Source of the DNA: Eledone cirrhosa
Taxonomy: Eukaryota
DNA length: 64,000 nt
Assembly: GCA_964016885.1 (NCBI GenBank)
Contig: OZ024746.1
Location: 37,200,001 to 37,264,000, forward strand
Direction: 5' to 3'
Of this stretch, positions 23,189 through 56,070 are shown piece by piece. Numbering within the stretch: position 1 is the stretch's first letter; the number at the start of each line of letters is the position of its first letter. The position numbers and the translations under genes were made by a program. The notes below the pieces were generated by a model. The model saw only the letters and a list, made by a program, of their open reading frames with translations, was not told the origin of the DNA and did not search any database.

Positions 23189-23990
23189 TAAATGTCATCT
23201 GAGTTTTTCGAATATTAATAATAACATTCGATTCGTTTTCAATTATGCAAACAAGCCTCAATTTTATAGCCATGTCAGTAGAATGAACACTTCATTGTTG
23301 CTCTTGTTTTGTCATGCGAACAGAACTGCATATACTAATGTTTCTGGATATCACCCTTCATCAGTACAGCTCACTGTTCACCTGCCAAACTGTCAGAGCT
23401 CGTGAAAATATATGCTATTTTCAAAAATACATAGTGACTGATCGGCCTGATTTGCTCTAAGAGCAAGAATGAAGTGTTCAATCTACTGACAGTGCTATTA
23501 AATTGAGGCTTGTTTGCATGTTATTATTAATATTCGAAACACTCAGATTACATTTATTGTATTCAGCCATGTAGAGCGAAATTTTCTTTTTTATTTGAAT
23601 TTGGCAACGCCGGCCAGTTATCGCTCGAATACACGTAACTGTCAGGCCAGTCTGCTGATATGCAAATCTGGCTCATCAGTGGATCTGCTAAGATGCACAT
23701 ATGACAGATTAGCCAGTCTACCAATATGCAAATCAGGCCGATCAGTCACTGTGTATTTTTGAAAGTAGCATATATTTTCAATAGCTCTAACAGTGTGGCA
23801 GGTTAACAGTGAGCTGTACTGATGAAACATTAGTGTCTGCAGTTCTGTTTGCATGCCAACATTCTACTGACATGGCCAACAAATTGAGGCTTGTTTGCAT
23901 AATTACAAACGAATCGAATATTATTATTAATATTCGAAAAATGCAGATTACATTTATTGTATTCAGTAATGTAGAGCGAGATTTTCTTTA
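23189..23990. mobile_element. Non-coding HHR repeat family E: inverted partial copy (23189-23455, minus) plus tandem 1.3-mer (23459-23990, plus)
   Basis: TTGAGGCTTGTTTGCAT...ATTACATTTATTGTATTCAG occurs twice in direct orientation and part of it once inverted; the same family occurs at 55569-56070; flanked by (TA)n. Confidence 0.8.
23323..23372 (-). ncRNA. Type I hammerhead ribozyme (family E)
   Basis: Minus strand: gagctgta CTGATGA agggtgatatcca GAAA cattagta TA tgcagttc (8-bp stem I with G-U pairs); the sister copy at 23811-23845 has GAAA ca-ttag-tg TC but has lost stem II. Confidence 0.7.
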
Positions 23991-24033
23991 TATATATATA
24001 TATATATATATAAACTAAATCAGTGTGTTTATA

Positions 24034-24236
24034 AATAATAATTGTTTCTACTTTTAGCACAAGGCCAGCAATTTCCCAGTGTATTACTGGTACTTTATTT
24101 TATCGACCCCGTAAGGATGAAAGGCAAAGTTAACCTCGGCGGGATTAACTTTGCCTTTCATCCTTACGGGGTCGATAAAATAAAGTACCAGTAATACACT
24201 GGAAAATTGCTGGCCTTGTGCCAAAAGTAGAAACAA
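24034..24236. mobile_element. Head-to-head palindromic pair of 5'-truncated SINE copies (24034-24143 minus; 24146-24236 plus)
   Basis: Near-perfect inverted repeat of the SINE 3' half with a very short spacer. Confidence 0.9.
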
Positions 24237-24729
24237 AGTACAAATATAGGAGGCTTTTAATCGTCAGCTTTAGCATAAGTATACTGGGCAAGCTAAATGT
24301 GTGTATATCCTTTTGGTCTCAAATAAACACTTCTACGGTAACATATATCTTTCGTTTTTGTTATCACTATCTCTTTCAGTTTTCTTTTTATTTTCTCTTG
24401 ATATATACCATTAGTTCTCTAGCCGAAAAGACACGTCGATCTTGGATACGCACTAACAGCGTATTGTTTGTAAGTTCAAATCCTGTTTCTCCGTTATTTT
24501 GTCTCCTTCCTTCTTTATTTCCCATCATTTCATATTTATTCATCGCTTTGTTCCTTTATCTTTATTCATTATCAATTCTATTTTTAATTTAGAAAAAACT
24601 AAGATCCTATGATTATATTTCAACCTTAGTCAAATAATTTTGCCTCTATTAGTACTTTTGATGTCTATATATTTTAATGAAGATATAGTTAAATGTAAAG
24701 TTGTTTTGTGTATTTCACGAATGGTTTAG

Positions 24730-25250
24730 ATTCATATAATCATGAAATAAGATCCATTTCCTCAAGACAGCAATTTTTGTTATCCATGCTAACATGTTGA
24801 CATGTCGGTCGACCTTTTTCTTTTCTCCGAAACGTTTTATTTTCTACAAGTAATATATGGTATCCTGCATCTACAGCTTTACAGAAACTCAAAGCTATTG
24901 AAAGTAACAACCAGATTGATATCACTAAATTAAATGAAAATCGGTAATAATGATATTAATGACGCTTAAAAAACAAATCATCCTGGAATTTCAAAATACA
25001 TTTGCTACAGGAAAAAGAAATATTCACTAGTCGTAGTGCAAAGCTGATTCTTGGAAAGCAACATTATTTACAATTTAAAGGATCTTCCGCATGATTACCC
25101 AGTCTCACCCATTTATTTTCCATTTTGACAGAAACTTTATTACTTCCTCAAATAAAATTCTGGAAGAATCAGGTTTCGCAGATGATATCAATTAATGTAA
25201 TTCCTGTTGTATCATGAAAACCAACAATTTTGCGCAGCCCTATCAATAGT
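24730..25250 (-). pseudogene. Decayed LINE RT fossil (CR1/L2/Jockey-like)
   Basis: IALSFCKAVDAGYHILL resembles the LDFSKAFD.V.H.IL motif; surrounding frames are broken. Confidence 0.4.
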
Positions 25251-28200
25251 AGGTAAATGAGCAAACAAAACCTTCCTTCAATTACACCTTTCTAAAATAC
25301 AGTTGATTCACTTCCTTAATTCTGAATCTCTCAATTATCAATGTGATGAAATACACTTATTGAACCAATTATTAATACCGCAAAACGTAGGAGATTAAAT
25401 CCTTGTACTCATAGAAACTAATGACCTATAATCCAGGTTCTTTCAAAACATTCCATGGTCTAACATATAATACATTCTATAGTAAGAGCATCATCAACGC
25501 TCAAGTTTTGTATTGCAGCTGGTGGGGTGACACTAGCACTAGCTATATTCCAGCTATCGATAAATTCTGTCATCAACCAGACAAAAGAATATTCGGCTGC
25601 CAAAGACCTACTCTCAAAATAGCTATTTTTCATGAAGTAAACTAACATCACCGAATCTGTTGATAGATGATCATGGAAGGAGACATGGTTAGCTACATAA
25701 TGTAAATGTTAAGGAAAACAGCGTGATATATGTCATGTTTCATGGGTAGAATGATTAAAATCATATAAAATAACGATTGAAACGCAAGGGAGGAAGACAA
25801 ATAATCCCATAACAATATCACACAGTCAATTGCATCTGAGAAGTTGGGTGTGTATACAGATATGCTTTCGAATATAATAATAATAATAATGATAATAATA
25901 ATGGATATGTGACATTCCTATATGACATACGTTTGTATAGTAAACAGATAAAAAGTGACTAGTTTTTCAGGAGTATTAAATGTATTATCAGTGATTTAGC
26001 GAAAACGGTTCTAGGAATTAGGTAAGTGGAAGCTTCTGAAGTAGAATAAAACTAATTGAAGTACTATTTCTTGTTGATCACACACAACTACTGGCAGAGC
26101 TGTGAAATGTTCATAACTTAAAATCCACGTAACGAGCTTATATATGCTTATTATACACTGATATACTTTTCAAATTGCCTCCTCTTACGAATAACGCCAT
26201 TTTAGTGGCACTGCTAATTAATTATTTATTTTAATCATTACTAAATTTCAGAACCCTGGATTTTACATTTATATATTGGCAGTAGCACTAGGACAGCATC
26301 AAAGGTTGTATAAGAAAGCATATACTGTACGTATATGTATATACTAGCTATCGAATGTAATAGTGTTCCAGTTCGGAAAGGAAAATAGACTATAGCCTAT
26401 TATCATCACTTTACTCGTTTGAGAGAATGACACTGATAAGAGATTAACTAATCGTGAAACAGCTACCTGCCTTTCTCAACGGTTGCTAGTATATCTATGA
26501 TATGGTCACATAGAAAAAGAGAGAAACATATTCTTTTCATAAATTATAGGATTGATAGCGAGGCTCTCATTTATTTATTGTATATGATTGTATATGTAAT
26601 ATATGATTTCATTCACACCCCTATCATGTATAATGCTATCTTAGTGCTGCAATCAATCAATTATATCTAGGAAAGTTTGCAAATGAGCAAATGAGTAATT
26701 CCGCCGATATTTTGCATTTGCTATATACAAATGAAAATCTCCAGCAAATGTTCAATACACAAAATTCAATATTGGATCTAGTCTATTTTCATCTAAGTAT
26801 ACGTCACTGTTCAGAGATGAATAGATCTCGAGAAGGCTGTCTGGAATTGTCAACAGTGACTGGGATATTTGTGACATGTTCACTGTTAGAAGATAGAAAC
26901 ATAATATTTCATAACATAAATATATGTTTTCTTTGATTGAAAGGCTATCATATATTTATTGTATATAAACATATATTATATGCTTTCATATACACCCATA
27001 TTATACGCGCGCCCCAGTGTGTGTGTGTGTGTGTGTGTCTGCCTGTCTGTTTGCTGTGTGTGTTTGTCTGTGTGCGTGTGTATTTATGTGTCTGCGTTTT
27101 TATCTTTTTTTGTGTATCTTTTTCTTTTCTAATTTACACTTTGGAATCAGATTCTCTCTTACGATTATTTAATTCCGTGTCTACATCTTATCCGGTGACC
27201 TATGCTGCTCTTCCTTTCGTCCATTTTACTATAGTACTGCATTTTTCCACTCTCTGATAACTTAATTTCAATCTCTGTTATTTTCTTCTCTTATAGTGTC
27301 TATCCATACAGTTTATATGTACTTGTGTCGATGTCTTTATATCACTCCTCACATCCTAACCCACTTTATTGTATCGAATGTTTCTCATTACTATGCTATC
27401 AGATTTTCTGCTTTACCTATTGTAATATTTCCTCGTTTAGCTTTTAGAATATGTCTATTCATTCAGTTAATTATTTCTTCCTGTCTTCTATATCTTTCTC
27501 TATATTTTTTTTAGTAATATATTTGACTTATTACATAAGTTCATTATTTATTTTGTTTGTGGATGTTCAAATATTCGTACTTACATCTGTGCCCAATAAT
27601 TCCTTATTTTACTTGTTTCTTTTCCCTCTGATTTTCTTTTTCCCTTGTTCTTTTCACATTTCGGTTTAATTATTATTTTCTATTCCTTTGTTTTATTTGA
27701 ATATCTTTGAAGAACTCTCATCTACAGTATACTTTGTATGTTACCTTTTTCATCTTTCTTTCTATCTCGTTCTTGGATATTTCTTTCTGTGTACATTCTT
27801 TATGCTGTTTTATTCTTTTAATGGGCGTTTCGAAATACTTTACTCTTCAATGGTTTCTTGTTTTCTCGTATTGGCTTCAATCGATATTCTTTATATTGAC
27901 ATTTTAAGATTTCACACTATCTGACCAAACATACAAACATATCATACTATAATGTTAATTTTAAATCGTTACAGTGCCAGACACACAAAAGCACATATAT
28001 ACCAACATGACTCTTTACATATTTAACTATTCAAATTATACGATAAAGTACTGTAAAAAGAGAAGATAAAAAGATATGTATGTATTGAAATATTGAAACA
28101 TTCTAGTCTTCTAATTTGACTTTGCTGTGTTTATTTTAAATCACATTTCTCATTCTGTCTCTAAATCAATTTGACATGATATTAGCTGTCTCTAAAGGGA

Positions 28201-28767
28201 AAAAAATACAAACAAAAACAAAATGACACACACGCATACAGTGAACATTGGAAAAATTAAAAGGAACAACATTATGAGAAAATACACCAATGTACACACG
28301 AAAATGATGGAGTAGAACACGAATTATGTTTGTATTTAAATAACGTTGAACTCCTTCCAGTAGCCGCAGGTAAGTTTAAACAGAATCATTCACTCAGCTA
28401 TTTTAAAACCAGTTTTCCTAATATTGGAGATACTCAGTTTACCTTGGATATCATTCTAAACTTCTGTAGTGACAGCGAAAGCGCCGAATAGATAATATAT
28501 ATGATGAGAAAGAATCGATTATAACTTTACGTATACAGAATCTCCTACGTTGAACACAGATTTTACTGTTGTATATAGTGTTTAGCTGAAGGCCAGCATT
28601 CCTGAATAGTGCTCTGACCAACAGGGTTTGAACATTTTCCGTTACATATAAATATCCTATCACAATAGATCATCAGGTTTCGAGAAGGCAAGACGACAAA
28701 CACAGAGTTTCCCATAATTGACATGTATCTATACATTTGTATATCCCTGTGAATGTGCATATTTATA

Positions 28768-28812
<45 letters not shown>

Positions 28813-28974
28813 AAGGCGGGTAACATTCCCGAGATCCATGGACGAGTTCTCTCCAGCGGTCTCTGTCCCTCATTTTCGCTGCCATGTCCTGCGTCTCCAA
28901 CATATATATAATATATATACATATATACATATATATAAATATGCAAATAATTGCACATTCACAGGATTATACAA

Positions 28975-29058
<84 letters not shown>

Positions 29059-29059
29059 T

Positions 29060-29090
<31 letters not shown>

Positions 29091-29144
29091 GTATATTTAT
29101 ATACATAAATATATATATATATATATATATGTATATTTATATAC

Positions 29145-29227
<83 letters not shown>

Positions 29228-29301
29228 TGTATATTTATATATATGTATATGTATATATATATATATGTATATATATATGTATATTTATATATATGTATAT
29301 T

Positions 29302-29372
<71 letters not shown>
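28975..29372. repeat. Compound (TA)n microsatellite
   Basis: Direct reading. Confidence 0.95.
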
Positions 29373-29376
<4 letters not shown>

Positions 29377-29575
29377 TTAAGGATACTATTGATGGTTATG
29401 TATATACTAAAACCTTTTATAGTTATATATATTTTAAACCCTAAATAGTGAAAGACAGTAATGTATTACTATCATATTACCAGTAAGATAAATAGCTCAA
29501 TGTAACAACATCAGTTGTTTTACAAAGCAGTTATATAGAAATTACATGAATCAAAGTTCTGTTTAAATCATTTAT

Positions 29576-29624
29576 TTGCTTACAATTGTTTCTTCCAAAC
29601 CGAGGTTTGGAGATTTCGGAGCAA
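29576..29624 (-). ncRNA. Minimal type I hammerhead-like motif (family F, degenerate core)
   Basis: Minus strand: ttgct CCGAAAT c tccaaac-ctcg-gtttgga a GAAA caattg TA agcaa; perfect stem I. Confidence 0.55.
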
Positions 29625-31272: not shown

Positions 31273-31320
31273 TTTCTCCGAAGACTCAAACCTCGGTTTG
31301 AAAGAAACAATTGTAAGCAA
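31273..31320 (+). ncRNA. Minimal type I hammerhead-like motif (family F, C4 variant core)
   Basis: tttct CCGAAGA c tcaaac-ctcg-gtttga aa GAAA caattg TA agcaa. Confidence 0.6.
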
Positions 31321-33919: not shown

Positions 33920-34118
33920 GGGCGCTTGGTAGGAAGTATCATTTGGGCGTTGGATAACAATATAGCTACGCTTCTTTACTTTCTGAGTTCAAATCTCAGC
34001 GAGGTTAGCTTTCTCTTTCATCCTTAGAGTTTCGACAAAATTAAAGTAAAGTGGGCTCGATTTAATTGTCTTTCATCGCACCCGAAATTGTTGGTCTTGT
34101 GCCTAAATCGGAACCCAT
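33920..34118 (+). mobile_element. Old diverged copy of the tRNA-derived SINE family
   Basis: GAGTTCAAATCTCAGCGAGGTTAGCTTTCTCTTTCATCCTT...GGTCTTGTGCCTAAAT. Confidence 0.7.
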
Positions 34119-35001: not shown

Positions 35002-35099
<98 letters not shown>

Positions 35100-35960: not shown

Positions 35961-36024
35961 TAACGTTATATATTATATATAATGCTGCTTCAAGCAAACT
36001 ATAACATATTATTATATATATACA

Positions 36025-36212
36025 AGGGCGGTGGATTGGCAGCATCGGTAGAGGGTCGGACGCTATGCTTTGATGTATCGAGTTACGGCCCTTGCTATTC
36101 TGAGTTCAAATCCCGCCGAGGTTAACTTTGCCTTTCACCCTTACGGGGTCGATAAAATAAAGTACCAGTAATGCTCTGGGTAATTTCTGGCCTTGTGCCA
36201 AACGTAGAAACA
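36025..36212 (+). mobile_element. Full-length tRNA-derived SINE with 17-bp TSD
   Basis: A/B boxes, body and tail; ATTATTATATATATACA at 36008-36024 and 36213-36229. Confidence 0.9.
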
Positions 36213-36834
36213 ATTATTATATATATACATATATATATATATAATAGAGAGAGAGACAGAGAGGGAGAGAGAGAGAGATGTGGTAGGGAGGCTAATAATC
36301 AGCCATATCACGTCAATACCACACACTTGGGCTGATATTGTATTACTAACGAACGAATTCTTCCCAGCACTTATTTTGCCCACGGTAAGAATCCCCATTT
36401 GCCAGTATAAACTCAATAATAATCTAATAAGCAGTTCAATGGCCAAGCAGATGCAGGTGGAATCAAGAAATTGCGAATTGAAAGGTTTGTGCAGATAACA
36501 AAATATAGGGTGTAATTAAGTTAGATTCATGTAATTAATTTATTTTATCTTACCTTGAGGTGGTTGACTTACGCGATAACTAAATGCTGCTCTATCAATA
36601 TCTTTTAATTTTTCCTTCCTATTTGGTGGGGAACAGGTGGAAATGAATTCTTATAACTGACATATTTGCTTGCTTCATATTATATTTCGTTTTACTTTCT
36701 TCGTTTAGGTTTACATTATAATTTATATCATCCAATTTAATAATGCATATCCCAACCAATATCGCATATTCGATAATTTCTATTCCTCTAATAATCTGTT
36801 CATCTATTTATCTCTAAATCTATCTATCAATCAA

Positions 36835-37046: not shown

Positions 37047-39429
37047 CGAAGAAGATAGACGTGATTTTGTTTCGCTCCTGCATTTTGTCGGAATTTATTA
37101 CGAGAAGCGGTAGGTTTGTTTAAGGTACTTTTTATTTGTTGTGTTTAACACCTCGCCTGAGCCTGCAGAGCTTGGGTAAAATAAATGTTGGGGGCGAAAT
37201 TTGATAGTTATAAGTTATCGATAAAAATCGTTTAGTGACAATGGACGCCATTAACACGACGCATTCCACGCTCCCCAAGGAAAGTGATAGAGAGAAGGTA
37301 GCAGCACAACGCTGTAAGCTTTCCCTCCTCACTCCACGGAATCAAAATAAAAAAATATTGTGGAAATGGGTGAAAACCCCAAAAGAAACAATTATACAGA
37401 CAAGAACAACAATGACAATAACAACACAACCAACAACAGCAACAATGACAATAACAACAGAACCAATAACAGCAATAATGACAACACCAACAAAGGAATA
37501 AGCCAGCCAACACGAATAACAACAACAACGATGATAACAACACGAAAGAAAACGGATCCACAGCTGCAGTCTCCTTCGCACTGGCGGTTCGAGAAACGCA
37601 GACATAGAAGGCACTGAACATCTCTGAAAGAAATTGCTGAAAAAAATTGCTGAAAGAAGCAAGGTATTGTATAAGTTTTGGGGAAAGTGGGGAATTCACA
37701 ATTACCTCCCCTGAAGAAATTAGAAGGGACACAATCCGCAGGACGGTAATTTTTAGGTCAGTTTCGAACGCGACTAGGAAACCGGCTCAATTGTCTCAAA
37801 GCGAACATGCGCTGGTCCTAAGTAGTGCATGGAAGGATATCGCTTTCATACAGAAAGGGAAACTGTATGGAAGCATATATATTTTAATGCAAGATGAATT
37901 GGCGGCAAGGAAATATTCTGTGTCGCCAATTGTATCCAAAGCATACGCCTTTTTCCCCACATATTTGGGGAAAAGAACTCAAAAGATAAGAATCTCGGCA
38001 TCAGGCCAAATGTGAGCATATGGTGGGTGCTAACGGGATTCTCAGAAGATGAGGATACAATCCATTCGATAGGCGAATCCACCGAGGCGTATGCGGCGGC
38101 AATAGCCTTGAAGTCCTGGTTCAAATTAGACCAGAATGGATTACAAGAATACCGCAGCGTCTGCCCTTGGATGGAGTCACCTTCATAAACATTTCTGTTG
38201 AGGGCAGGCAGCCTTCACTTCTATAGCACCGTCATCTACTACCGCTTCACCGTCATGTCTTGCCCAGCGAAAACGCTCGCCAAAATGGAGCGCGCGCTCT
38301 TCCGATTCCTTTGGAAGAAGCGGGCCCCTTTGGTGAGATGATCCATCTGCTGTCAGCAACCTTCGAACGGAGGGCTGGCGGTGCCGTGGCTGACGATGCC
38401 TAGACACGCATTAAGGCTACGGCACCTCCAGGTATTCCTCACCGGTCAGCCGGTGTGGGCCCCTTTTGTGAGGCGAGCCTTTCCGAGACTCGTCTCACTC
38501 ACCGAGCTGTAATCCTGGGTCCAGAAAATACCGCGAAAAATGGACGACTGGCACATTGAATGTGCCCAGGAGAACACAGTCCTCTGGCAAGCGGATCCGG
38601 CAAACAGTGGAGACTCAACCACAACATTCTATAGAGGGTTGGTACGCAGCAAGTGCGACGAGGCTCTCGCAGAGGCTCTGGGCATGGAGGGAGACGAGCT
38701 AGCCAGTCTGTTCAGTAGGACGTTTGGCCCGGGACCGATGAACAACATCCAAACTCCCTGGATTGGCCGTGCTACCGAGGAGCTCTACCCGTTCGGGACA
38801 ACTCTACAGACACGGTTTCCAGGGTAGGGACCCCTCGAAGAAGATCTGTCCGAGATGGGTGCGTGACGAGGAAACCGTCACTCATGCATTCGTACACTGC
38901 CCGGGCGTTGCTGACCTGTGGGGCTATGTGGAACGACTACTGCCGCGGGTGGGACCAATCCGCTTGACCACCGAGTATATTGGCACGATCAAACCGTCTC
39001 CCCCCTTCAAAAACGAAGGAAAGGTGGTTTTCCTCTGTGTGATAGCTATGGAAAAAGAGTTTGTATGGTGGACGAGGTTGAAAGGGCTGAGGTCAGACAC
39101 TTTTCTCTCCGGCCAACAACTGTTCCTTTTTTTCAAGTACCATTTTAGAAGAAGGATTAGAATGGTGAGAGAGGTGCTCTACGCCAGCATGTTTTATGAA
39201 AGGTGGGTGAAAGTGGCGAGAATGGACCGAGTGAATGGGCCTTCTCTCTATATCAGCCTATAGGTGAGAGAGGAGAAGAAAGTGGAGAGGAAGGAAGCAC
39301 CCGCTTTTTGTGCTGCTGAGGAGGAGGGTTGAACATTTTTTTCGGGGGTGTTGAAATGTATGTACCCCCCCCCCCACCCTTGTGTTTTTCCCAATATTTG
39401 ATGCCCTGATGGCAAATAAATAGAAAGTT
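37047..39429 (+). mobile_element. Tx1/L1-like LINE with large internal deletion (5' UTR, ORF1 remnant, 3' third of ORF2, 3' UTR)
   Basis: ORF1 RRTVIFR..PTYLGKRTQKIRIS; ORF2 VIYYR..LFRFLW..GGL, and CCHC-type CPRW..EETVTHAFVHC; stop at 39263; AATAAA at the 3' end; (CTAT)n on both sides. Confidence 0.85.
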
Positions 39430-39657
39430 ATCTATATATCTATCTATCTATCTATCTATATATATATATACATTTTGAGTATATGTTGGTTGTATACCAA
39501 CACCTAAGTATGCAGACTGTAGCACTCAACGAACTGCACAGTATGATTCTAGTTACTGAGTGAAATAACAACCAAACCAGGAACTCGCCATATCACAGTA
39601 TTGACAAAGTTAAACACCTCAAAAACGTGTTCACTCGTCTCTACCACACTAATTCGG

Positions 39658-39712
39658 ACTGCCTGAAGAGGTCACAGCCAAAGATGGCTGTCACCGAAAT
39701 ATATATAGCAGT
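39658..39712 (+). ncRNA. Minimal type I hammerhead ribozyme (family G) in a PLE-like tail (~39470-39750)
   Basis: actgc CTGAAGA ggt c acagcca-aaga-tggctgt c acc GAAA tatata TA gcagt, then AATAAA; canonical core and perfect stem I. Confidence 0.85.
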
Positions 39713-39749
39713 AATAAACGAAGCCAAATGTTAAACATTTCGGTCCCGT

Positions 39750-41458
39750 GTTCATAGGTTGGATCGCTGCCATGCACACCAGCATCTGCTCGTCAGTCAA
39801 AGTGATTGCTACCTATCAGAGCCATTCCAAATCATGCGTTCCATCCGTCAGGGATGCCTTCTCTCCTCCATTATTTATGTACTGACTCTCGAGCCGTTAC
39901 TGCGGAAGTTGGAGCTGTTGCAGAGCATCCAGATCGAACCAGGACTGCAGAAAGCAGCGTCCGCCTATGCCGACGCCATAACCGTAATGGTGTCGAAAAC
40001 CTCGGAAATCAGGGTAATCGGCAACCTATTACAGGAATACGTAACGTTGACAGGAGCAAGACTAAACAGAACGAAGTCTGTCGGTTTGCAACTTGGCACA
40101 TGGAGAGGCAACCCCATGCCTTCCGACAGTGTCGTTGGACGCTGGACGGAAGGACCGGTGAAATTGCTCGGGGTCTGGTTTGGTCCTGACCTCCAGGAGA
40201 ACAAGAACTGGAACGAGGTCACAACACTTACATAGCGTCTGTCATCTACTACCGCTTAATAGTCGTGTCTTGCCACCGCGAATACCTTACCAAAATGGAA
40301 CGCCTACTTTTCAAGTTCCTCTGGAAGAAACAGGCTCCATTGGTGAGGAGATCCATCTGCTGTCAAAACTCTTCTAAAGGAGGGCTGGGCATGCCGTGGC
40401 TGATGATGCGGAAACGTGCGCTGAGGCTACGACATCTCCAGTTATTTCTGACCGGTGAACCGGTGTGTCTGTCGTTTGTGAGACAAGCTCTTCTACAACT
40501 CGTCTCATTAACAGAGCTACAGTCCTGGGTCAAGCCAAGACTGAAAATGGTTGCCTGGCACCTCGAGTGTCTACAGGCGCTCACAGGCCCTCTACAGGCC
40601 CTCTACCAAGCGGAAACGGCAATCGGCGGAGACTCCACTTACAGGCCCTCTACCAAGCGGAAACGGCAATCGGCGGAGACTCCACTTCGACATTCTATAG
40701 GGGATTAGTTGAGGATAAGTGCAACGACGTTCTCGGGGAAACTCTAGGCATGGAGGAGGACGAACTGACCACTCTGTTCGGGAGGACTTTCCGTACAGAG
40801 CCTATGGATAACTTCCAGAGTTCACTGGCCTGGCAGTGCTACTGAGGAACTCTACCAGTTCGGGACAAAATCTACAGGCATGGACGCCCTGGCAGGGATC
40901 CTGCCAAAAGGACCTGTCCAAGATGCGAGCAGGACATCGAAACCGTTCTGCACGCAATTATCCAGTGCTCAGGGGTGACCGACCTGTGGAATTATGTGGA
41001 ACACCTGCTGTCATGTGTGGGACACATCCAGTTGTCAGCCGAGCCCATCGTGAGGATCACCCCGCCGCCTTCATTTAAGAACAAAGGAGAGGCGGTTTTC
41101 ATCTGTCTGGTGGCTATGGCGAAAGAGGTAATATGGTGGACGAGGTTAAAAGGACTGATGGCAACAATCTTTCTCTCCGGACAACAACGTATCCACTTCT
41201 TTAAGTATCACTTCAGAAGGAAAGTAAGAGTGGAGAGGGAGGTGCTACATCCCAGTAAATTCGCTGAAAGGTGGGTGAATGTGGCAAAAGTGGTCCGAGG
41301 GAATGAGCCTTCTCTGTATATAAACCTGTAGGTTGAGGAATATAAACAGAGGAAAGACAGTAACTCCTACACAACGTGTTCCTTGTGTTGAGGGTTGTTC
41401 TATCCACGAGGTGTAAAACAACCCTGCAGCAACGTTCCCCCCTACTGGGGATTTCACC
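39750..41458 (+). mobile_element. Tx1/L1-like LINE ORF2 3' half (RT motifs to C-terminal zinc finger), pseudogenised
   Basis: SIRQGCLLS..YVLTLEPLL, SAYADAIT, GARLNRTKS, VKLLGVWF, GGLGMP, CPRC..ETVLHAIIQC; stop at 41331; ~47-bp tandem duplication at 40593-40687. Confidence 0.9.
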
Positions 41459-43845
41459 TACAGATGGCCACCAGTCTAAAGGCACCACCTTCAAGTTGTT
41501 CACGTCCAGGACTACCAAATTCCAGTCCGGGTCTCGGATGATCGACCTTACCTGGAGGTCCACGCCATTCTTAAACAGCACTGCCACCTCACCTCCCATT
41601 CCCGGCCGACTAACATAAGCAAATATCTGATAGTGGGGCTAATGTGCAGGTATCGGAACTCCTGGTCTCGCTGACGGCAATTACATCCATTTCTAGAGAC
41701 CTGAGGTCATTGAGCAGGTGACCCTGCTTCCAGGACTATCCCAGGCCTCGAATTTTGAACTTCCTCCACTTAATACGGCCATGTTGGCAGGCTAAAATAG
41801 AGAGAGGAAAATGTACTTACCTTCCAGGTTTTTATGAAGGTCCTGTGGTTCGACCTCCATCGTTGGTGGGGTTTCTTTTGGGAACCCCTTTAAAAGTCTT
41901 GAAGTGTGTTTTCCGTTCGGGGTTCCCACGTCCCGAAGAATGCTGTCTCGTATCTCTTTGTATAAATCGAGCGACATTCACACCTGAAACGAAATGTGCT
42001 CGATTTAAACATTTCTCCCTCTTTTTGTATATCTTCCCTTCGTGCTACGATGGACATCGGTTCCTTGTTGGCCCACCTGACGAGCACGAAGAGTGTATGT
42101 TTTGTTGGTGCGATTTTATTTATTTGCGTGACCGTGGTGGTGATGGTTTTGGTGGTGTTGTTTCGGGTATGCCTGTGTTTGTTGTAGGTGTGGTGACTTC
42201 AAATACATGTATCCGTGTGTTTATTTGTTTTTGTTTGCTTAGGTTGTTTGCGTTTCGGGGATGGTGGGGGAGGTGTTAATGTTGATGTTGGTGTTTATGT
42301 TATTGGGGAAGTGTTTGCGTTAGTGGTGTTTGTATTTTTTGTTGCGTACGCTTCTGTGTTTTGTTGGGTTTTCTTTTTTTTTGTGAGTTTTCTCTTTTGT
42401 TTTCTAGCACTTTTGGGTTTTCACTACTGGGAGACAAAGGGTCTGTAGTTGTGAGTGTATCTGTGTATCTGTGCTTTTATGGTTTTGTATATGTGTATAA
42501 TTGGAGGGGGAGGGTAGTGGGAGAGATTTCCTCATTTTACCCTTGGATTGGTTTCGGTGCTGGTAGTGGTCCGGCTGTTTTGTTTATGTTGGTGGAGTTA
42601 CCCGTGTCATTGTTGGTGTTGTTTTTGGTGGTGGTGGTGCAGCTTTCCGTGCTGACACTGGCGTTGGCAACAAAGGAGGTTTGCGACCCCATGCATTTTT
42701 GAGCTGAGAGCAAAAGTCTTGCAGATGCGTTGCTTCTTCGAAAACGAAGCAGTGCGGCCTTCTTCACACAGTGATTATTTGGATTATTGTCCCGTCATGC
42801 AGGCGGGCAAGATCCGCGATGTTGTTGATGTCCTCTGGTTTCATTTGAAGAACAGTCTCCAAATCCATTCCGGACCAGTCTTCTCTCTCTCTGTCCTTTT
42901 GATATCTAGGAAGGTAGTGTCTGTCGCCTCCTCGATTACGCATCCCTGGAGCCACCATATGTTCATTCCTGGTGGGATACTTGGAATGCGGATCTTTACT
43001 GCCCTTTTGCACATGTAGGACCGGTGCATGCTGATGCGTTCCGTTCTGCAGGCTGTTACCGAGTGCTTAATAGCAAAGACCTCGGTTTTGAACAGTACCG
43101 AGATGGTATTGAACTGCTAGGTCCTTGCTTTGTACTCGATGTCACTTCCGATGCACTTTAAAGCAGCCTCGACTTCTGCTTGGCTGGCGAGTTCCACTTT
43201 GTGTGTCTGCACTGAAATGCATCGAAAGTACACCGTCCTCCTTTGTATGGCTGCTATTGCCTGGTCCGGAATGGTTAGATTTGCCCAGCACTTCTCTCGT
43301 TTAATTAACCACCACGCCTGGGCCAACTATTAGGTTCCTTATCACTAATATCTACATTGAGGAAGCGCTTTGATATCGCTGCGGCCGCTGCAAAGGTGGC
43401 GCCTCCGTTGTTCTTGTTGTTGCTGTGGTCGTACTTGCAGTCGTTGTTGTTGTTGTTGCTTGTTCTGTTTTGTTTGTTATTGCTGTTGCCACCACCATCA
43501 GTGTTTACAGGGAGGCTGTCGTTGTTGTTCTGGGTAGTTGTTTTGTTGTTGTTGTGGTGGTGGTAGTGGTGGTGGTGACGTCATTTTGAGATGATACTGT
43601 CTCTATCACAGAAGGGAACGGTTGTGGTGGTAACTATTGTGTCCTGCCTCTACATCCAGTGGGGAAGACGACAGGCATGTTTGTAGTAGTAATCTTGGCT
43701 GTTTTTGAACTTTTAACCTATACGTGTTTATCGTTTCAAGGTCGAACATTTCCATATATTTTGGTGGGGAAGCGATTATTTTCGAAGTTTTTAAAGATAA
43801 ACCTGAATATTCGGGCTGCGAAAGGAAATATGTCAAGTACAATAC
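41459..43845 (-). mobile_element. Tx1/L1-like LINE 5' half (5' UTR, ORF1, N-terminus of APE endonuclease)
   Basis: ORF1 RRTVYFR..YMCKRAVKIRIPSIPP..IWW homologous to 37647-38050; APE IRGL..LLNDL..DVIAVSET, GGEVAVLF, LVVLDV, FRLVAI. Confidence 0.85.
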
Positions 43846-48080: not shown

Positions 48081-48899
48081 ATAACAATTTCAATAAAAGC
48101 AACAGAATCAACACTACTAAAGCATTAGTCTGTAACTTTGCCAACGATAAGGGAATTATCAGCTCGCATATAGCAATAAACACAGATCTGGCGAGATAAG
48201 TATCGTCGTGGCAACTTCATAATACATTCATCAAGCGAATATAACAATCGTTTAATGTACTTAAATATCCCTTTAAATTTAATTACAAAATAAGCAGCTT
48301 CATATACATAGTATTGCCACTCACATTGTGTCACTGCATGTGTTGATTAGTGTGGTGTCAATTTCAGTTATATTTGTTTTATATACAACATCACAGGTTA
48401 TCTGGTTATTTATATCATTATAGCTTTAGTTGTTCTATTCCTTTTAGAATGAGAAAAATTGAGGCTGGGCTGATGTGTTTTCTAAATTCTAATTTATTCA
48501 TAGTTTTCATTATCTGAGAGAAGCTGGTATTTTACGAAATCTACTAAGATCGAAAGTGCACTATCTTCTCATGTATTTACCTACTATATTCATAGGAACT
48601 TCGATATATTTACATAAAGAAACATTTAAATGTTGTATATCTGCCCTTGTTTCTCACCTTACATTTTAACGTGTACTTAAGCATCCATTTTCCTCCACTT
48701 TCTTTTCATGTTTCAACTAATGTCTGTGGTTTCAATTTGTTTCATGGGAATAAGCGATATTATATACCTTTCCTAGTCAGTCAAGGCTTAGTAACTATAT
48801 GCGAATGTTCAAATTATATAAATAAACATACGAATATAGAGTTTATTTTACTAGTTGTAAATGATTAATACAATGTTTTATATTTCTTCTATAGAATAA

Positions 48900-50700
48900 T
48901 TCTGACCATTCCCACATATGAATGAATGTGCTCGAGTCATGAGCATCCGGGTGTGATTTTGTGTTGCTAGCATTAGGTTTTATATCATTTGATATCAGTA
49001 TATCAATTGGATTGTGACATCACCTGTGTCGGAGTTATATACGAATGATTTCTTGGTTTCCTACAACGCGTTGGTTATTATACTTTCAGTTTGTTTTGTA
49101 CAGACACCTATTGAAACCTATCGGTGGCTGACAGTGTATAGGTTTAGAAGTAGATATAACCTTTACAAATCCCGAACCTATTCTGTCAGATAAAATGTAA
49201 TCTCAGTTCTAATGGGAAATTTGGCCGATATTATTAGGGAACACTTTCCTGACATTACGTTTTAAGGCCTTTAGGAATACTAGATAGGCGATGCCCTGCA
49301 TGCCTACTATAGATACTATTGAACTCAAAACCATGAACGCCATGCTTTAAAGATATATATTGAGTCTAAGTTCCAGCAGTTGCGTTGAAAAGGCCAGTTT
49401 GTAATTTTTGCATCTTCACCAGTGACAAAACAATTTTGTTGGGAAGTTACGAAATATTGAGTTACTTAGGGGCTACGTCATTTTATATCCATTAACTCCC
49501 ATCAACTCCGGTTAAACTTGTAATACGTTTATATATTTGCAACCCGAACATAGAAAAAGGCTGTGTTTGCATTTCAATTTATGTTTTCTAGAATGTTGTT
49601 TGTTATCCTAATTCTTGTTTTCAGAGTGAAATATTTTTGTCTGATTTGTTACGGTTTGATATGCTACAATATTGAATGTCATATTTTTTTTTGTTTTTGA
49701 CATGGGTGCATGAAGCAAGCGGTAATATATGTAGTGGCGCAAGTTATGTTATCATATCGTCTGTTTCATGTTATTATGGAAATGTTTAAATTATGTGAAA
49801 AGAAAACTGGGAACATCTTCAGATGTCATAACCAAGTAAATTCATGAGATATATATTGAAACAAGCACGAATTTTTGTTGAAATGATATTTTGTGCTGAA
49901 ATAAATGTGAATTCATTTTAATAAAATAACAATGGAGATTTTGTGGATACTAAATCACCCAGCTGAAAAACACAGGATATTCTATTACCGAACACAATGT
50001 TTTATACAATCAGAAAATAATTACATATGAGCAACAGTGATTAACGTTACGAAATGCTTATCTCATTTAATGCAAGTTAATCAAGTTAATACTAATCTCA
50101 CGTCAAATATTCTTAATTTCCAAATTTATCTTTCCTGGTGTTCTTGGTGACCATGAAATCACTTATTTCGATAACTTATTTCTTATCGCAGTTCATGTAA
50201 TTGTCATTGCATCATTTTTTTTCTTTTTATTTCGATATATCAGAACTCAATATATTTCATGATTTATGCAGCGAAACCATTTGGTATCCTCACCGAAAAA
50301 ATCTCCGTGGGCATACACAAACATCCCACAACTTATTGTTCTCATTCTTCAAAACGATGATACCCTGTATAGTTTTGATAAGCTACACATATGAGAGGAG
50401 TTTCCATGGACTGCCAAAGTATAGAATCCATGAAAACTGTTTTCTCGTTATGCAGGATTACCTCTGACATAATGTAATGTTGGAAATGGCAGACAGATAA
50501 CCATGGCATCACAACATATTCTCTTAAAAAGATTGTATGATTTGAATAGTTATTATCAATGTAGATTATGTCTGAGAAATTGAACACAATATAAATTACT
50601 TCCAGAATGGTGATCGTATATCCGCTCAAATTACAGATATAAACGCCTACATCACGAATAAATCAATTTAGGTAGTGAACAAAATTAATAATCTCCACAT
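48900..50700 (-). pseudogene. Possible very old LINE RT fossils (two patches, ~48900-49500 and ~50100-50650)
   Basis: Weak motifs: IAYLVFLKA; CHGYLSAISNI followed by IMSEV (cf. RQGCLLSP.LFNI..IM); YAHGDFFGEDTK (cf. YGMEI..EKTK). Confidence 0.3.
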
Positions 50701-51349
50701 AATTCACTATAACCACCACTGAAAATATACATCAGTCTTAACAGTTTTCAATATAATTATTAATATACTTCAATTATTTTTCTATTCATAGCTTGGTTGA
50801 ATCCTTTGTCTTCTCAGTATAAACTACAGTGATAACATTTGTTCACCAATATTTGTATTGATAGCAAATGGTTCATATGATTATTGTTTTTGATTTATAT
50901 TTGTAGTGGTGTAACCAGAGAATATAACGTACGATGGAATCAAATTTTCAGGAGTCCCGTCTCTGATTTCTATTTATAAATGTCATACTTATTTTACGAT
51001 AAGGAAACGGTTGAATATCTCGTGTACGAATTAAATTATATAGTATAATGTACATAAGGCTTATTAGGAAAACTAAGCTACTGCTCGTTGGACACAAATT
51101 ACTTTGTATTGATGACGTTTTTACGGAAAGAATTGCATGATTCCTAAAGAAATGCATGGGGATTATATATAGAAGATTGTAATTGCTCATCATCTGAACG
51201 TGAAACACTTCAAAACATCTAATTTTCTTTTTGAATAAGTATAACATATTGTTGAAATTTAAATTTCTTTTATTTGATCTTCTTCGTTTAGATGTATATG
51301 GCTAGTGTATTATTTGTATGTATGTATATATATATATATATATATACCT

Positions 51350-51914
51350 ACATATATATATGTGTGCATGTATGTATATATATGTACAGGCTACTGTACG
51401 TCTGTATACATATATGTATGTACGTGTACATACTTATATTTAAGTAACAGCCGTACTAAGAGTGGGAAATGAAATTTCGTTTCATTTTTTCCGTTTATCG
51501 TTTTCGGTACACCCGGCCGATTAACCCACTCAATATGCAAATTGGGCAACCCAGCCGTTAATATGCATAAGGTAAGTATATACGTTCAACAATCTGGCAG
51601 GAAGGTATACGTTGCTGACGATAGCTAATAAGCTTGAAACTAGTACAGCTTTCATTTGTCAGTGTTGAACAAACGAGCAACGATGGTTGCTAGACACTAC
51701 GGCTTAATACGGGATGTTTGTTTACAAACACACCGGGCATTATAATAATTGTTCGGTGAATCCATACGTACGTATACATATGTGTGCATGTATGTATATA
51801 TATGTACATACTACTGTACGTTTGTATACATATATGTATGTACATGTACATACTTATATTTAAGTAACAGCCGTACTAAGAGTGGGAAATGAAATTTCGT
51901 TTCATTTTTTTCCG

Positions 51915-51917
<3 letters not shown>
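51350..51917 (+). mobile_element. Non-coding tandem 1.35-mer with 420-bp period containing one HHR (family H; retrozyme/pLTR-like)
   Basis: 51350-51497 is repeated at 51770-51917 almost identically; (TA)n on both flanks. Confidence 0.8.
51611..51649 (+). ncRNA. Minimal type I hammerhead ribozyme (family H)
   Basis: gttg CTGACGA t agct-aata-agct t GAAA ctag TA cagc. Confidence 0.75.
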
Positions 51918-51951
<34 letters not shown>

Positions 51952-52072
51952 AGAAATGTAAGCTATCGCCGTATTTTGACTAAATAAATTAAATAAATTA
52001 TTTGACCTGATAGTGGGGTTAAGAACCCTCGAATAATGTCAAATCCACTCGCTGTTTCGAAAATATTCTTAC

Positions 52073-52124
<52 letters not shown>

Positions 52125-53142
52125 ATATATACAGACACATATATATACATACATATAAATAATAAATATATATATTTGTATGTGTGTGTGTGTATATGTG
52201 TGTGTGTATGTGTGTATGTGTGTGTTTCTAGGTATATGCATGTATTTGTGCACATTTGGATTACATACCACATGGTGCATGTGTAAAGAACACATTGTAA
52301 GTGTAGAAACCAATGTCAATTGCACATCATACATCATGAGTAGCTTTAAAATGTATGCTTCGACAGACATTTGCTACAGTTTTGTTTAATCAGCAAAGGT
52401 ATTTTTAATTCATGATGAGGAGTATTTACCTTGTTTCCATATCCGATATGGTAAACAATTCATGGATGTATGAAATTATATATTCCACTCATGTGTAGAG
52501 TGATATCTAAATAAAAGAATATGACCAATGAAATTAAATAATGCAAACACATCTATATTAAAAGAGAGCAGGCGAGAAGAAACAATATAACATATTCAGA
52601 GGAAAATGCAGAATTTATACCATTTTGATATGCAGTATATGCATTTCTTGTTTTCTGTTACGCCGTAATACTGAAAGCAACATCGATTTCTTTATTCGTG
52701 TCTCTTCACTTTATAAATTCAATGCAATGCTGTCAAAGATCCTCTATATAGACCAGTTAAATATGCGGCTGACGGGTTTCTCTGATGGCGATTACCTTCA
52801 TTCGTAAAGTTTCTCAAAGGTCAAGAAAAAACACCTATGCACATATTGCAATGTTATTTTTCAGCATTACTGAATAGAAAATTGCATAAAGACACAGAGC
52901 CAAGAAACACATAAAGACAAGAAACGCATAAAGACATAGAACCAAGAATCAAAGCTCAACCAACAGGGGGTTGTGTGTGTAAATTCATATATAATTTGAT
53001 ATTGGAAGGGACAAGACAAATTATATTTCCAAAGGAGCAGTTTTGATCGAATTTTCTGGAAATCATGAAGGTTGTGCATCTGCACATATAATAGAAATAC
53101 CGGTGGTATGCATTATGTGCATTTCTAATTGTCTGTTCTTTT

Positions 53143-53201
<59 letters not shown>

Positions 53202-53203
53202 CA

Positions 53204-55034
53204 AGTATGACACCGACGGCAGAGCTCAAGCCGTTTCGACGGCTAATTCTGGACTAAATAAGAATTTTTAGCCTGGTAAATAAATAGTCGAACTTCACAA
53301 GGGGTAATTCCTTATATGGGAAGATAGTAATTGTCCAAGGGGATTGGTCAACATTTTTTATGAAGACGGATTATCCTATCATGGCATTTGGTGGGAGGTA
53401 GGGGTAGCTGAACTTGCCGTAAGAACAAAGAGGGAGTGGGGGAAACCCAGTCAAGCTTTGAAAGTGAAATCTATACAGCAGATTCTGAGGATAGTGTATA
53501 GAAGGTTGAGAAAAGTGTACTGGAGAAGTTTGAAAGAATAAGTAAATCGAAAGGGAGTAAACAACGAAACCATTATAAAAATAAGGAAATAAATATATAA
53601 AAAGAAATTTCTGGTTACTACTCCCCTCCCACAATCACCAAATCTCTCATTGGTATTGCTAAGCTATAGAAACGTTTAATAGGTGGAGAAAAGTACTAAA
53701 TACGAGATTGTAGTGAAATAATTTTATAAAGCCGGATTTACGGGGGTGTCTAACCCCACTGCTATAGTTAGTTACTAATCAGCCAATGCCGGTTTAAAAA
53801 CAAAAATACTAAATTACTACTACAAAAATACTAATACGGAATATTAATTCAGAATACTAATACAGAAATACTAATACAAGGATACTAATACAAAAATACC
53901 ACTAGGAAATTTAGAAATCACAGAAATGGAGCAGCAACCAGAAAGATAACAATTTACTGGGGTCTAACACATCTGCTCTAAATAACGTAATCGGCCAATT
54001 ATATCTTAAAATTACGGGCATAGGGGTACTGAGGCTACAGAGGACCGAAGTGCTGCATCGGGGTAGGCGAAAAGGTGAAAAAAAGACAAGGAAGGAGAAA
54101 CTGGGGTCGAAGGACAAGGAAGAGATGGGGGGAAGAAGAAAAAGATGAAATAATAAAATTACGCTTTTTACAGCAGATGTGTTAGACCCCAGTAAATTGT
54201 TTTCTTTCTGGTTGCTGCTCCATTTCTGTGATTTCTAAATTTCCTACTTGTATTTTTGTATTAGTATCCTTGTATTAGTATTTCTGTATTAGTATTCTGA
54301 ATTAATATTTCGTATTATTATTTTTGTAGTAGTAATTTAATATTTTTGTTTTTAAACCGTCATTGTAAGATATCAAAGCTGGCTTTATAAAATTCTTTCA
54401 CTACAATCTCGTATTTAGTATTTTTCTCCACCTATTAAACTTTTCTATAGCTTAGCAGTACAATGAGAGATTTGGTGATTGTGGAAGGGGAGTAGTAACC
54501 AGAAATGTTTTTTTATATAATTATTATATATTATATATTTATATAATTATTATATATTTTTTATAAAGGTTTGTTGTTTACTCCCTTTCGATTTACCTAT
54601 TCTTTCACCCCCACCCCCACTCTCCTTCTCCAGTACACTTTTCTCGACCTTCTATACACTATCCTTAGAATCTGCTGTATAGATTTCACCTTCAACGCTT
54701 GACTGGATTTCCCCCACTCCCTCTTTGTTCTACCGGCATGTTCAGCTACCCCTACCTCCCACCAAATGCAATGATAGAATCATCTGTCTTTACAACACAT
54801 TTTTTACCAATCCCTTTTGACAATTACTATCTTCCCATATAAGAAATTACCCCCTGAGAAGTTCGGCTATTTATTTACCAGGCTAAACATTCTTATTTAG
54901 TCCAGAATTAGCCGTCGAAACGGCTTCAGCTCTGCCGTCGGGGTCATACTGTTCCTATTACCCACTCTACTACCCTAAGTATTGAGCACTTTGTTGCGTT
55001 ATGGTCCATCTGGTTCCTTACCACATTTCCTTCG

Positions 55035-55035
<1 letters not shown>
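53204..55035. mobile_element. 1.8-kb fold-back element (family I): arms 53204-53977 and 54172-54950, HHR near each outer end
   Basis: Arms are reverse complements with substitutions and small indels; the right arm continues ~85 bp to a (TA)n tract. Confidence 0.85.
54849..54944 (+). ncRNA. Type I hammerhead ribozyme with full stem III (family I)
   Basis: acccc CTGAGAA gtt cggcta...tagccg tc GAAA cggc-ttcagctct-gccg TC ggggt; GUC site at 54937-54939; the mirror copy at 53210-53305 (minus) has core TTGTGAA. Confidence 0.7.
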
Positions 55036-55083
<48 letters not shown>

Positions 55084-55085
55084 AT

Positions 55086-55130
<45 letters not shown>

Positions 55131-55143
55131 GTATATATATAAT

Positions 55144-55235
<92 letters not shown>

Positions 55236-55403
55236 GTATAAATATAATATATCTATATAAATAAATATATATATATATGTATATATATAATATATATATA
55301 AATATATATATATGTATAAATAAATATATATATATATGTATATATATATATATGTATATATATAATATATATATAAATATATATATATGTATACATATAA
55401 TAT

Positions 55404-55436
<33 letters not shown>

Positions 55437-55478
55437 AATATATTTATTTATAAATATATATATATAAGTATATTTATT

Positions 55479-55568
<90 letters not shown>
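55036..55568. repeat. Compound (TA)n microsatellite
   Basis: Direct reading. Confidence 0.95.
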
Positions 55569-55571
<3 letters not shown>

Positions 55572-56070
55572 AATAACATTCGGTTCGTTTGCAATTATGC
55601 AAACAGGCCTCAATTGTATAGCCATATCAGTAGAATGAACCCTTCATTCTTGCTCTTCTGTTAGCATATGAACAGAACTGCAGACACTAATCGTTATGGG
55701 TATCACCCTTCATCATTACAGCTCACTGTTCACCTACCAAACTGTCAGAGCTGTTGAAAATATATGCTATTTTCAAACATATACATTGATTGATCGACCT
55801 GATTTGCATATTAGCACAGTGGCTGATCAGTCAGATCTGGATATTAGCAGATCCACTGATCAGCCAGATTTGCATATCAGCTGACTCGACAGTCTGTTCG
55901 CTGTATACGAGCGATAAATGGCCGACTTTGCGAAATTCAAATATAAAAGAAAATGTTCGCTCTACATGGCTGAATACAATAAATGTAATCTGAGATTTTG
56001 ACTATTAATAATAGCATTCGATTCGTTTGCAATTATGAAAACAAGCCTCAATTTTATAGCCATGTCAGTA
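55569..56070 (-). mobile_element. Family E monomer, ~1.15-mer with ~438-bp period; degenerate HHR at ~55675-55725
   Basis: GCCTCAATT.TATAGCCAT.TCAGTA at ~55607 and ~56045; aligns with 23189-23990. Confidence 0.8.

What the first reader, a model, noticed from the sequence alone, without database searches (positions are those of the whole stretch)
23189..56070. Family E: dispersed ~440-bp HHR monomer found as tandem, permuted and inverted copies
Seen: at 55569-56070 a ~1.15-mer with ~438-bp period; at 23459-23990 a ~1.3-mer with different start and end points, plus an inverted partial copy at 23189-23455. There is one HHR per monomer with an 8-bp stem I (GAGCTGTA/TGCAGTTC). Different permutation points at two loci 32 kb apart suggest a circular or multimeric RNA template (inference). 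One locus combines the tandem and fold-back signatures.
Basis: partly seen in the sequence, partly recalled or inferred. Interest (0 to 1): 0.75.

Follow-up and report, generated by a model that had tools for sequence, protein, structure and literature searches.

The report
Penelope-copied hammerhead mini-element, older family
These are two decayed copies of a 439-base non-coding repeat that occurs thousands of times in this animal genome, carries a hammerhead-ribozyme motif and shows the insertion footprint of Penelope-type jumping genes, which likely copied it from a probably circular RNA; such parasites (retrozymes) are already known from other animals.

Summary
The repeats are real. Family E is a 439-bp non-coding unit with one type I hammerhead motif and thousands of copies, about 2.7% from consensus. 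All three hammerheads in this window are damaged. The ends are not freely permuted: 127 of 143 mapped loci end at two clusters about 38 nt apart, mostly beside microsatellites, and their 5' ends are scattered. 94 of 143 carry a head-to-head second arm. This is the Penelope-like element (PLE) footprint, not a fold-back. No mapped copy is the end of a coding PLE, and no partner was found. Support for a single-monomer (circular or self-jump) template is indirect: copies run seamlessly to 1.9 units, repeats within a copy share rare variants (30 vs 7 expected), the unit folds as a closed ring (z -10.7), and a 73%-identical sister family keeps much of the fold. No RNA data were available, so cleavage and circles are untested. 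Verdict: a new, older member of the metazoan non-LTR retrozymes. The scan has noted several similar families elsewhere in this genome and in others.

The parts
23188..23455 (-). Locus A inverted arm: consensus 143 back through the hammerhead to 315 (0.61 unit, 96% identical); its outer end is at the commonest 3' end site, next to (TA)n
23323..23372 (-). Hammerhead motif in the inverted arm: core intact, cleavage triplet AUA instead of GUC, one stem III pair broken
   Evidence: sequence; motif scan
23459..23989 (+). Locus A forward arm: consensus 26 round to 176 (nominal 1.34 units) with deletions at about 85-103, 411-425 and 23-45; ends in the second 3' end cluster before (TA)n
23811..23845 (+). 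Hammerhead remnant in the forward arm: 15-nt deletion removes stem II
22966..23187 (.). (TA)n/(TG)n microsatellite on the left of locus A, the likely target
23990..24012 (.). (TA)n on the right of locus A
55564..56070 (-). Locus B: single arm, consensus 51 round to 119 (1.16 units, 93% identical); 3' end is atypical and its exact edge against (TA)n is ambiguous by about 5 nt
55675..55724 (-). Hammerhead remnant in locus B: C3 to A and GAAA broken, predicted inactive
55036..55563 (.). (TA)n microsatellite at the 3' end of locus B

Best explanation
Family E is a non-coding, hammerhead-bearing 439-bp repeat with the Penelope insertion footprint, likely a non-LTR retrozyme that a Penelope-like element's enzyme copied into (TA)n from a probably circular RNA monomer. 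Proposed cycle. (1, inferred) Read-through transcripts of the minority of copies with two hammerheads self-cleave, probably as a double hammerhead, and release one exact monomer. (2, inferred) The monomer's two ends are predicted to pair in a long stem, so it would be ligated into a circle in which the lone hammerhead is predicted to be mis-paired and slow. (3, ends shown, enzyme inferred) A PLE RT/GIY-YIG protein cuts both strands of a (TA)n target and primes reverse transcription inside the RNA at two sites, about 143-148 and 172-181 nt after the cut site. (4, shown as layout) Each cut end can grow its own cDNA; these stop at variable points after 0.1-1.9 rounds and are joined head to head. 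(5, shown) The copies have since decayed to about 2.7% from consensus, and a SINE has repeatedly inserted into one hairpin loop. The partner PLE was not identified.
For: Ends: 127 of 143 forward 3' ends and 71 of 96 inverted outer ends fall in two windows that cover 10% of the unit. Modes are 143, 181 and 148, and 106 of 143 forward ends abut a microsatellite. Layout: 94 of 143 loci are inverted-then-forward, 46 are forward only and 3 are complex. These match published PLE features: partial tandems, an inverted 5' copy and a 30-40 bp optional tail (PMC8557442, passages); two adjacent internal start sites and extension of both strands in vitro (PMC11167929, main text). One source sequence per insertion: site 70 agrees between the two repeats of a copy in 62 of 65 cases (39.8 expected) and site 64 in 58 of 63 (41.3). 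Rare non-CpG variants are shared 30 times vs 7.2 expected, in 18 of 87 copies. Inverted vs forward arm: 56 of 58 (35.5) at site 70, and 29 shared rare variants vs 6.8. The eight commonest haplotype classes are similarly diverged, 2.1-3.4%. Fold: circular MFE -167 kcal/mol, z -10.7, still z -5.3 without the sub-repeat insert. Sister family E2 is 73% identical over 320 aligned columns. Of 87 aligned pairs it keeps 53 unchanged, 8 by double and 7 by single change, and breaks 19; slid controls pair 28-37 of 87. Stem III is self-complementary in both families. The genome holds intact PLE ORFs of 758-823 aa.
Against: No cleavage, ligation or circle was observed. No autonomous PLE sharing E's sequence was found among three full Hydra-like families, fragments of at least five more, and several Neptune-like families. 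No copy reaches two full rounds (maximum 1.94), so nothing forces a circle. cDNA ends pile up just after the hammerhead cut: 26 of 67 stop in positions 1-32 vs 36 of 222 in neighbouring bins, P = 2e-4. That fits some linear cut templates, though stalling in the closing stem explains it too, and the hammerhead-anchored second pass shows no pile-up (2 of 13). Shared variants could come from gene conversion between nearby repeats. Site 42 agrees in only 38 of 58 tandem pairs. The active hammerhead fold is 7 kcal/mol less stable than a mis-paired fold. For the anole PLE, hammerhead cleavage was not needed in vitro and no reads ended at the cut site (PMC11167929).
Confidence: 0.62

Rival explanations
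1. Same PLE-driven insertion, but the template is linear: either uncut read-through RNA from 1.4-1.9-unit copies, or hammerhead-cut monomers between which the RT jumps from 5' end to 3' end.
For: No copy exceeds 1.94 units. cDNA ends are enriched at positions 1-32. Unprocessed RNA was the main substrate for the anole PLE in vitro (PMC11167929). A jump across the paired ends of one cut monomer gives the same seamless junction and the same shared variants as a circle.
Against: A purely linear lineage without jumps can only shorten and cannot put a new variant into both repeats, yet both repeats share subfamily and rare variants. Long copies start at scattered points and share no upstream flank, apart from three that follow the same unrelated repeat across a (TA)n stretch.
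Confidence: 0.27
2. The inverted arm arises by self-priming (fold-back) on an antisense template, as proposed for rotifer PLEs, not by priming at the second DNA end.
For: Head-to-head arms share variants. The model is proposed in PMC3846280 (passages).
Against: Outer ends of inverted arms use the same two sites as forward 3' ends, and 63 of 96 abut a microsatellite. Inner ends mirror the forward start within 10 nt in only about 2 of 94 loci (L108, L142; read by eye). In vitro both target strands are extended from the same start sites (PMC11167929).
Confidence: 0.08
3. The copies are truncated ends (pseudo-LTRs) of a coding PLE.
For: The footprint is that of a PLE. A PLE RT/GIY-YIG fragment lies 155 bp from locus B. 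Xenopus retrozymes resemble pLTRs (bioRxiv 10.64898/2026.07.22.740005, parts 1-3).
Against: The neighbouring PLE points the other way and has a different hammerhead, the same one found in its intact family. 0 of 143 loci have a PLE protein match upstream in sense without a microsatellite between. The sequence 5' of the hammerhead is E's own 3' end.
Confidence: 0.03
4. A satellite or DNA-level element spread by recombination or extrachromosomal DNA circles, with the hammerhead as a relic.
For: Tandem and inverted arrangement; some loci are segmental duplicates (L133, L035/L036).
Against: No three-hammerhead array among 39 two-hammerhead matches. Ends are polar: fixed 3', variable 5'. Pairing is conserved with compensatory changes in the sister family.
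Confidence: 0.02

Closest known systems
Metazoan non-LTR retrozymes (Cervera and de la Pena 2020, PMC7229834; passages and Discussion read)
   Same: Short, low-GC (39%), non-coding unit with one type I hammerhead; thousands of copies; partial tandems; structured circle predicted; weak monomer fold and self-complementary stem III recall the axolotl motifs that cleave better as dimers.
   Different: Unit is slightly longer (439 vs about 225-390 nt). No arrays beyond 1.9 units. The hammerhead core is predicted to be mis-paired in the circle, whereas that paper predicts it free in most metazoan circles. Cleavage and circles were shown there and are untested here.
EN+ Penelope-like elements, Hydra and Neptune clades (Craig et al. 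2021, PMC8557442, passages and section 11; Arkhipova et al. 2013, PMC3846280, passages)
   Same: 5' truncation, partial tandem, head-to-head inverted copy, about 38-nt optional tail, (TA)n targets, hammerhead upstream of the 3' end.
   Different: No RT or endonuclease ORF. No sequence shared with any PLE family sampled here.
Poseidon PLE of Anolis, PAc (Frangieh et al. 2024, PMC11167929; main text read)
   Same: Two neighbouring internal start sites downstream of a hammerhead; both target strands extended.
   Different: PAc is autonomous and starts about 85-92 nt after its cut site, against 143-181 nt here. Its start sites are not homologous to the target, while E's ends are AT-rich and blend into (TA)n.
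Xenopus retrozymes related to PLE pseudo-LTRs (Li, Clavereau and Pollet 2026, bioRxiv 10.64898/2026.07.22.740005; parts 1-3 of 5 read, supplements not available)
   Same: Non-autonomous hammerhead repeats that co-occur with PLEs.
   Different: That study used distribution and sequence similarity in 35 species, with no mollusc named in the parts read, and did not map insertion ends. Here the ends give the link and the sequence link is missing.

Membership tests
Metazoan non-LTR retrozyme | Type I hammerhead motif in each unit | tested here: met
   Core and three stems in the consensus; intact pattern in 21 of 28 top-hit loci; damaged in all three window copies; no Rfam match at gathering score on three loci
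Metazoan non-LTR retrozyme | Short, low-GC, non-coding unit | tested here: met
   439 bp, 39% GC; a 77-codon frame in the consensus is kept in only 2 of 12 copies checked
Metazoan non-LTR retrozyme | Tandem copies with at least two hammerheads | tested here: met
   39 matches with two exact 16-nt core words one unit apart; none with three
Metazoan non-LTR retrozyme | Self-cleavage of the RNA | not testable with these tools
   Only indirect: excess of cDNA ends at positions 1-32, which stalling in a stem would also give
Metazoan non-LTR retrozyme | Expressed as linear and circular monomer RNA | not testable with these tools
   No RNA run could be examined; indirect support from shared variants and fold
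Element mobilised by an EN+ Penelope-like element | Fixed 3' ends with an optional 30-40 bp tail and variable 5' truncation | tested here: met
   127 of 143 ends in two clusters, modes 143/148 and 181
Element mobilised by an EN+ Penelope-like element | Head-to-head inverted copy at the 5' side | tested here: met
   94 of 143 loci; none is a simple tail-to-tail pair
Element mobilised by an EN+ Penelope-like element | Microsatellite target | tested here: met
   106 of 143 forward ends and 63 of 96 inverted ends abut a dinucleotide repeat; no genomic background rate was computed
Element mobilised by an EN+ Penelope-like element | Sequence shared with the pseudo-LTR of an autonomous partner | tested here: inconclusive
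   None in the families sampled; the searches score only the top 150 of tens of thousands of candidates
Autonomous Penelope-like element | RT plus GIY-YIG ORF | tested here: not met
   No such ORF in the unit or linked upstream in 143 loci

The most novel reading that the evidence does not exclude
The genomic copies record a Penelope-type enzyme copying one covalently closed, ribozyme-made RNA circle from both ends of a DNA break. E, E2 and a third relative form a lineage of such circles whose conserved hairpins are the enzyme's loading signal and whose hammerhead is switched off in the monomer and on only in the dimer.
Probability: 0.45. Interest if true: 0.62.

Novelty: new member of a known kind. 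Interest (0 to 1): 0.4.

Why it matters
How animal retrozymes get into DNA is proposed, not shown: the 2020 paper names PLEs as candidates, and the 2026 preprint links them by distribution and sequence. This family adds insertion-level evidence: PLE-type ends, two arms from one source sequence, and repeats regenerated from one monomer. The sister family marks the hairpins to mutate in an in vitro PLE assay. The value is limited because the kind is known, this family is decayed with short copies, its partner is unknown, and no RNA evidence is in hand.

Tried and rejected
1. The first BLAST end map suggested many arms stopping exactly at the cut site and many starts at position 271. Both were artefacts, from the edge of the concatenated subject and from a 33-bp sub-repeat deletion. 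It was replaced by a circular jumping alignment. The allele counts were likewise replaced.
2. Partner search. Two Hydra-like protein queries, Pfam GIY-YIG, a relaxed hammerhead pattern (5076 hits, nearly all listed rows from an unrelated family, apparently PLE 3' ends) and a relaxed hairpin pattern (31 hits, of 30 fetched 27 E, 2 E2, 1 new relative) gave no partner.
3. RNA. No RNA holder was listed. The three runs offered behaved as genomic contigs of one sample and say nothing on expression.
4. Rfam found no hammerhead family.
5. A coding role for the 77-codon frame was rejected.
6. The PLE next to locus B was rejected as E's parent (different hammerhead, opposite direction).
7. Look-up of earlier findings by sequence gave nothing.
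8. Paper searches listed no paper on this family or on cephalopod retrozymes. The library lacks most subscription journals and Repbase/Dfam were not available, so the family may already be catalogued.
9. Target-site duplications and a promoter were not assessed.
Full report
1. What is in the window. The window lies on contig C6 of a 3.0-Gb animal genome rich in (TA)n; its repeats look cephalopod-like to me, which is recall and comes from no call. Both loci match each other at 76-92%. On a 439-bp consensus numbered from the first base after the predicted hammerhead cut, locus B runs 51 round to 119 on the minus strand (1.16 units). Locus A is an inverted arm, 143 back to 315, joined head to head with a forward arm, 26 round to 176, that has three deletions. 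Three of the four outer ends touch (TA)n; the 5' end of B does not. All three hammerheads are damaged.

2. The family. Exact 33-nt patterns have 1071 hits (hammerhead) and 1839 hits (3' hairpin), with 0 for reversed controls, so copies number in the thousands. I parsed 143 loci with a circular jumping alignment. Of these, 86 were anchored on the hammerhead pattern (drawn from the first 100 of 1071 hits, all on C1), 28 were top hits to locus B and 29 were two-hammerhead loci. I dropped the window's own locus, three overlapping fetches and four near-identical duplicates; L133, a 2-kb tandem duplication, was checked by BLAST only. The samples are selected, so length distributions are conditional on the anchor.

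3. Ends. 79 forward 3' ends fall in 135-153, 48 in 165-189 and 16 elsewhere; these windows cover 10% of the unit. Inverted arms start in the same windows in 71 of 96 cases. 94 loci are inverted-then-forward, 46 forward only, 3 complex. 5' ends are scattered round the unit. This matches PLE insertions as described: partial tandems, an inverted 5' copy, a 30-40 bp optional tail, and (TA)n targets for the Hydra clade (PMC8557442, passages and section 11). It also matches the in vitro behaviour of an anole PLE, which starts at two adjacent internal sites and extends both target strands (PMC11167929, main text). The apparent permutation therefore comes from fixed internal priming plus truncation, and by itself says little about a circle.

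4. Is the template a single monomer? The longest copy is 1.94 units. All 39 two-hammerhead matches were inspected and none has a third, although that pattern needs exact 16-mers and would miss diverged arrays. Within a copy the two repeats share subfamily alleles: 62 of 65 at site 70 (39.8 expected), 58 of 63 at site 64 (41.3), 17 of 17 at site 347 (10.1), but only 38 of 58 at site 42 (24.2). Rare non-CpG variants are shared 30 times against 7.2 expected, in 18 of 87 copies. Inverted and forward arms behave alike: 56 of 58 at site 70, and 29 shared rare variants against 6.8. Most differences are unshared (650 of 11,825 site pairs), as expected from decay after insertion. A linear lineage without jumps cannot place a new variant in both repeats, so the repeat is likely regenerated from one monomer, by a circle or by a jump across its ends. 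Gene conversion between nearby repeats is not excluded.

5. Structure. The consensus folds as a circle at -167 kcal/mol (z -10.7 against 40 shuffles), and at z -5.3 without its sub-repeat insert; the opposite strand is as stable (z -11.6). Positions 2-31 pair with 371-404, which brings the two ends of a cut monomer together. A sister family, E2, was found through a weak match. It is about 400 bp, 73% identical over 320 aligned columns, has similar tandem and inverted copies, and none of its 30 loci is linked to a PLE ORF. Of 87 aligned pairs of the E fold, E2 keeps 68 (53 unchanged, 8 double, 7 single changes) and breaks 19; 51 recur in its own independent fold. The alignment is poor at positions 14-50, where most breaks lie. 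In the monomer a mis-paired fold of the hammerhead is favoured over the active fold (-26.4 vs -19.3), and stem III is self-complementary in E and E2. This suggests cleavage as a double hammerhead and a quiet monomer; it is a prediction only.

6. A trace of the cut site? In inverted arms 17 of 46 cDNAs that reach position 32 stop in 1-32. In a separate sample anchored on the 3' hairpin, 9 of 21 do (two of its 27 loci overlap earlier ones). Pooled, that is 26 of 67 against 36 of 222 in neighbouring bins (P = 2e-4). On the second pass, 11 of 16 top-hit copies stop there but only 2 of 13 hammerhead-anchored ones. Stops also rise in other strong helices, so run-off from cut RNA and stalling in the closing stem cannot be told apart. 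More than half of the cDNAs pass the site, which needs uncut, re-ligated or jumped templates.

7. Partner. The genome holds intact PLE ORFs of 758-823 aa with Hydra-type motifs, each family with its own hammerhead, and Neptune-like endonuclease families (clade label from recalled motifs). None shares sequence with E. In 143 loci no PLE protein match lies upstream in sense without a microsatellite between. The PLE fragment beside locus B belongs to one of these other families.

8. Comparison and novelty. E works like a PLE-mobilised non-autonomous element and meets the sequence criteria of metazoan non-LTR retrozymes (PMC7229834, passages and Discussion; bioRxiv 10.64898/2026.07.22.740005, parts 1-3, supplements not available). 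Cleavage and circular RNA, shown for coral, mussel and axolotl, are untested here. My paper searches listed nothing on this family. Earlier notes of this scan describe several other families of this type in the same genome and in others; they agree with my reading, which was written before I saw them, and I did not test them. Score: new member of a known kind, interest 0.4.

Noticed in passing
consensus positions 106-126 of E (for example L003, L013, L061); also L239 (E2) and L350: One SINE-like repeat has inserted 36 times inside E in 32 of 143 loci; 35 of the insertions lie at positions 106-115 (32 at 109), 35 are in the same orientation, and most have 6-19 bp duplications, against 256 uninterrupted passages. 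The site is an AT-rich hairpin loop. By eye it is usually in one arm only, so insertion came after E.
   Followed up: partly
L235-L264 (sister family E2) and L350:1225-1554 minus strand: A homologous hammerhead family of about 400 bp with an internal microsatellite (3300 candidates), and a third, shorter relative seen once as a partial tandem; both keep the 3' hairpin region.
   Followed up: partly
window 56226-58059 and 58945-59010 (+): 5'-truncated Hydra-like PLE with a 183-bp inverted repeat at its 5' end, RT and GIY-YIG fragments, a long 3' UTR and its own long-stem-II hammerhead; the family has many intact 821-aa ORFs.
   Followed up: partly
window 9788-11210 (-) and 7783 (-): Second Hydra-like PLE fragment, with a hammerhead of the same family about 2 kb downstream; related intact ORFs of 758-823 aa exist.
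   Followed up: partly
window 12917, 13514, 39663, 51615, 59173, 61206, 61836: Further hammerhead-like motifs of several families, including a 630-bp-period tandem pair at 61014-62163 that is 99% identical.
   Followed up: no
window 1-106, 7366-7470, 15440-15644, 16976-17375, 20577-21011, 24034-24223, 33962-34048, 36003-36217: The same SINE-like repeat occurs as monomers, tandem dimers and a palindromic pair right beside locus A; it has A-box and B-box-like motifs by eye.
   Followed up: no
L295-L324: An abundant family (5076 pattern hits) with a compact hammerhead about 110 nt before (TA)n and a long C/A-rich upstream region, apparently PLE 3' ends.
   Followed up: partly
L047 and L094: Two unlinked loci share the same inner junction (430 joined to 170) with different flanks: either recurrent microhomology or re-copying of a two-armed insertion.
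   Followed up: partly
window 38216-41638: Duplicated LINE-like RT fragments (RVT_1 at 39735-40232), 72-74% identical to each other, with a hammerhead-like motif at 39663.
   Followed up: no
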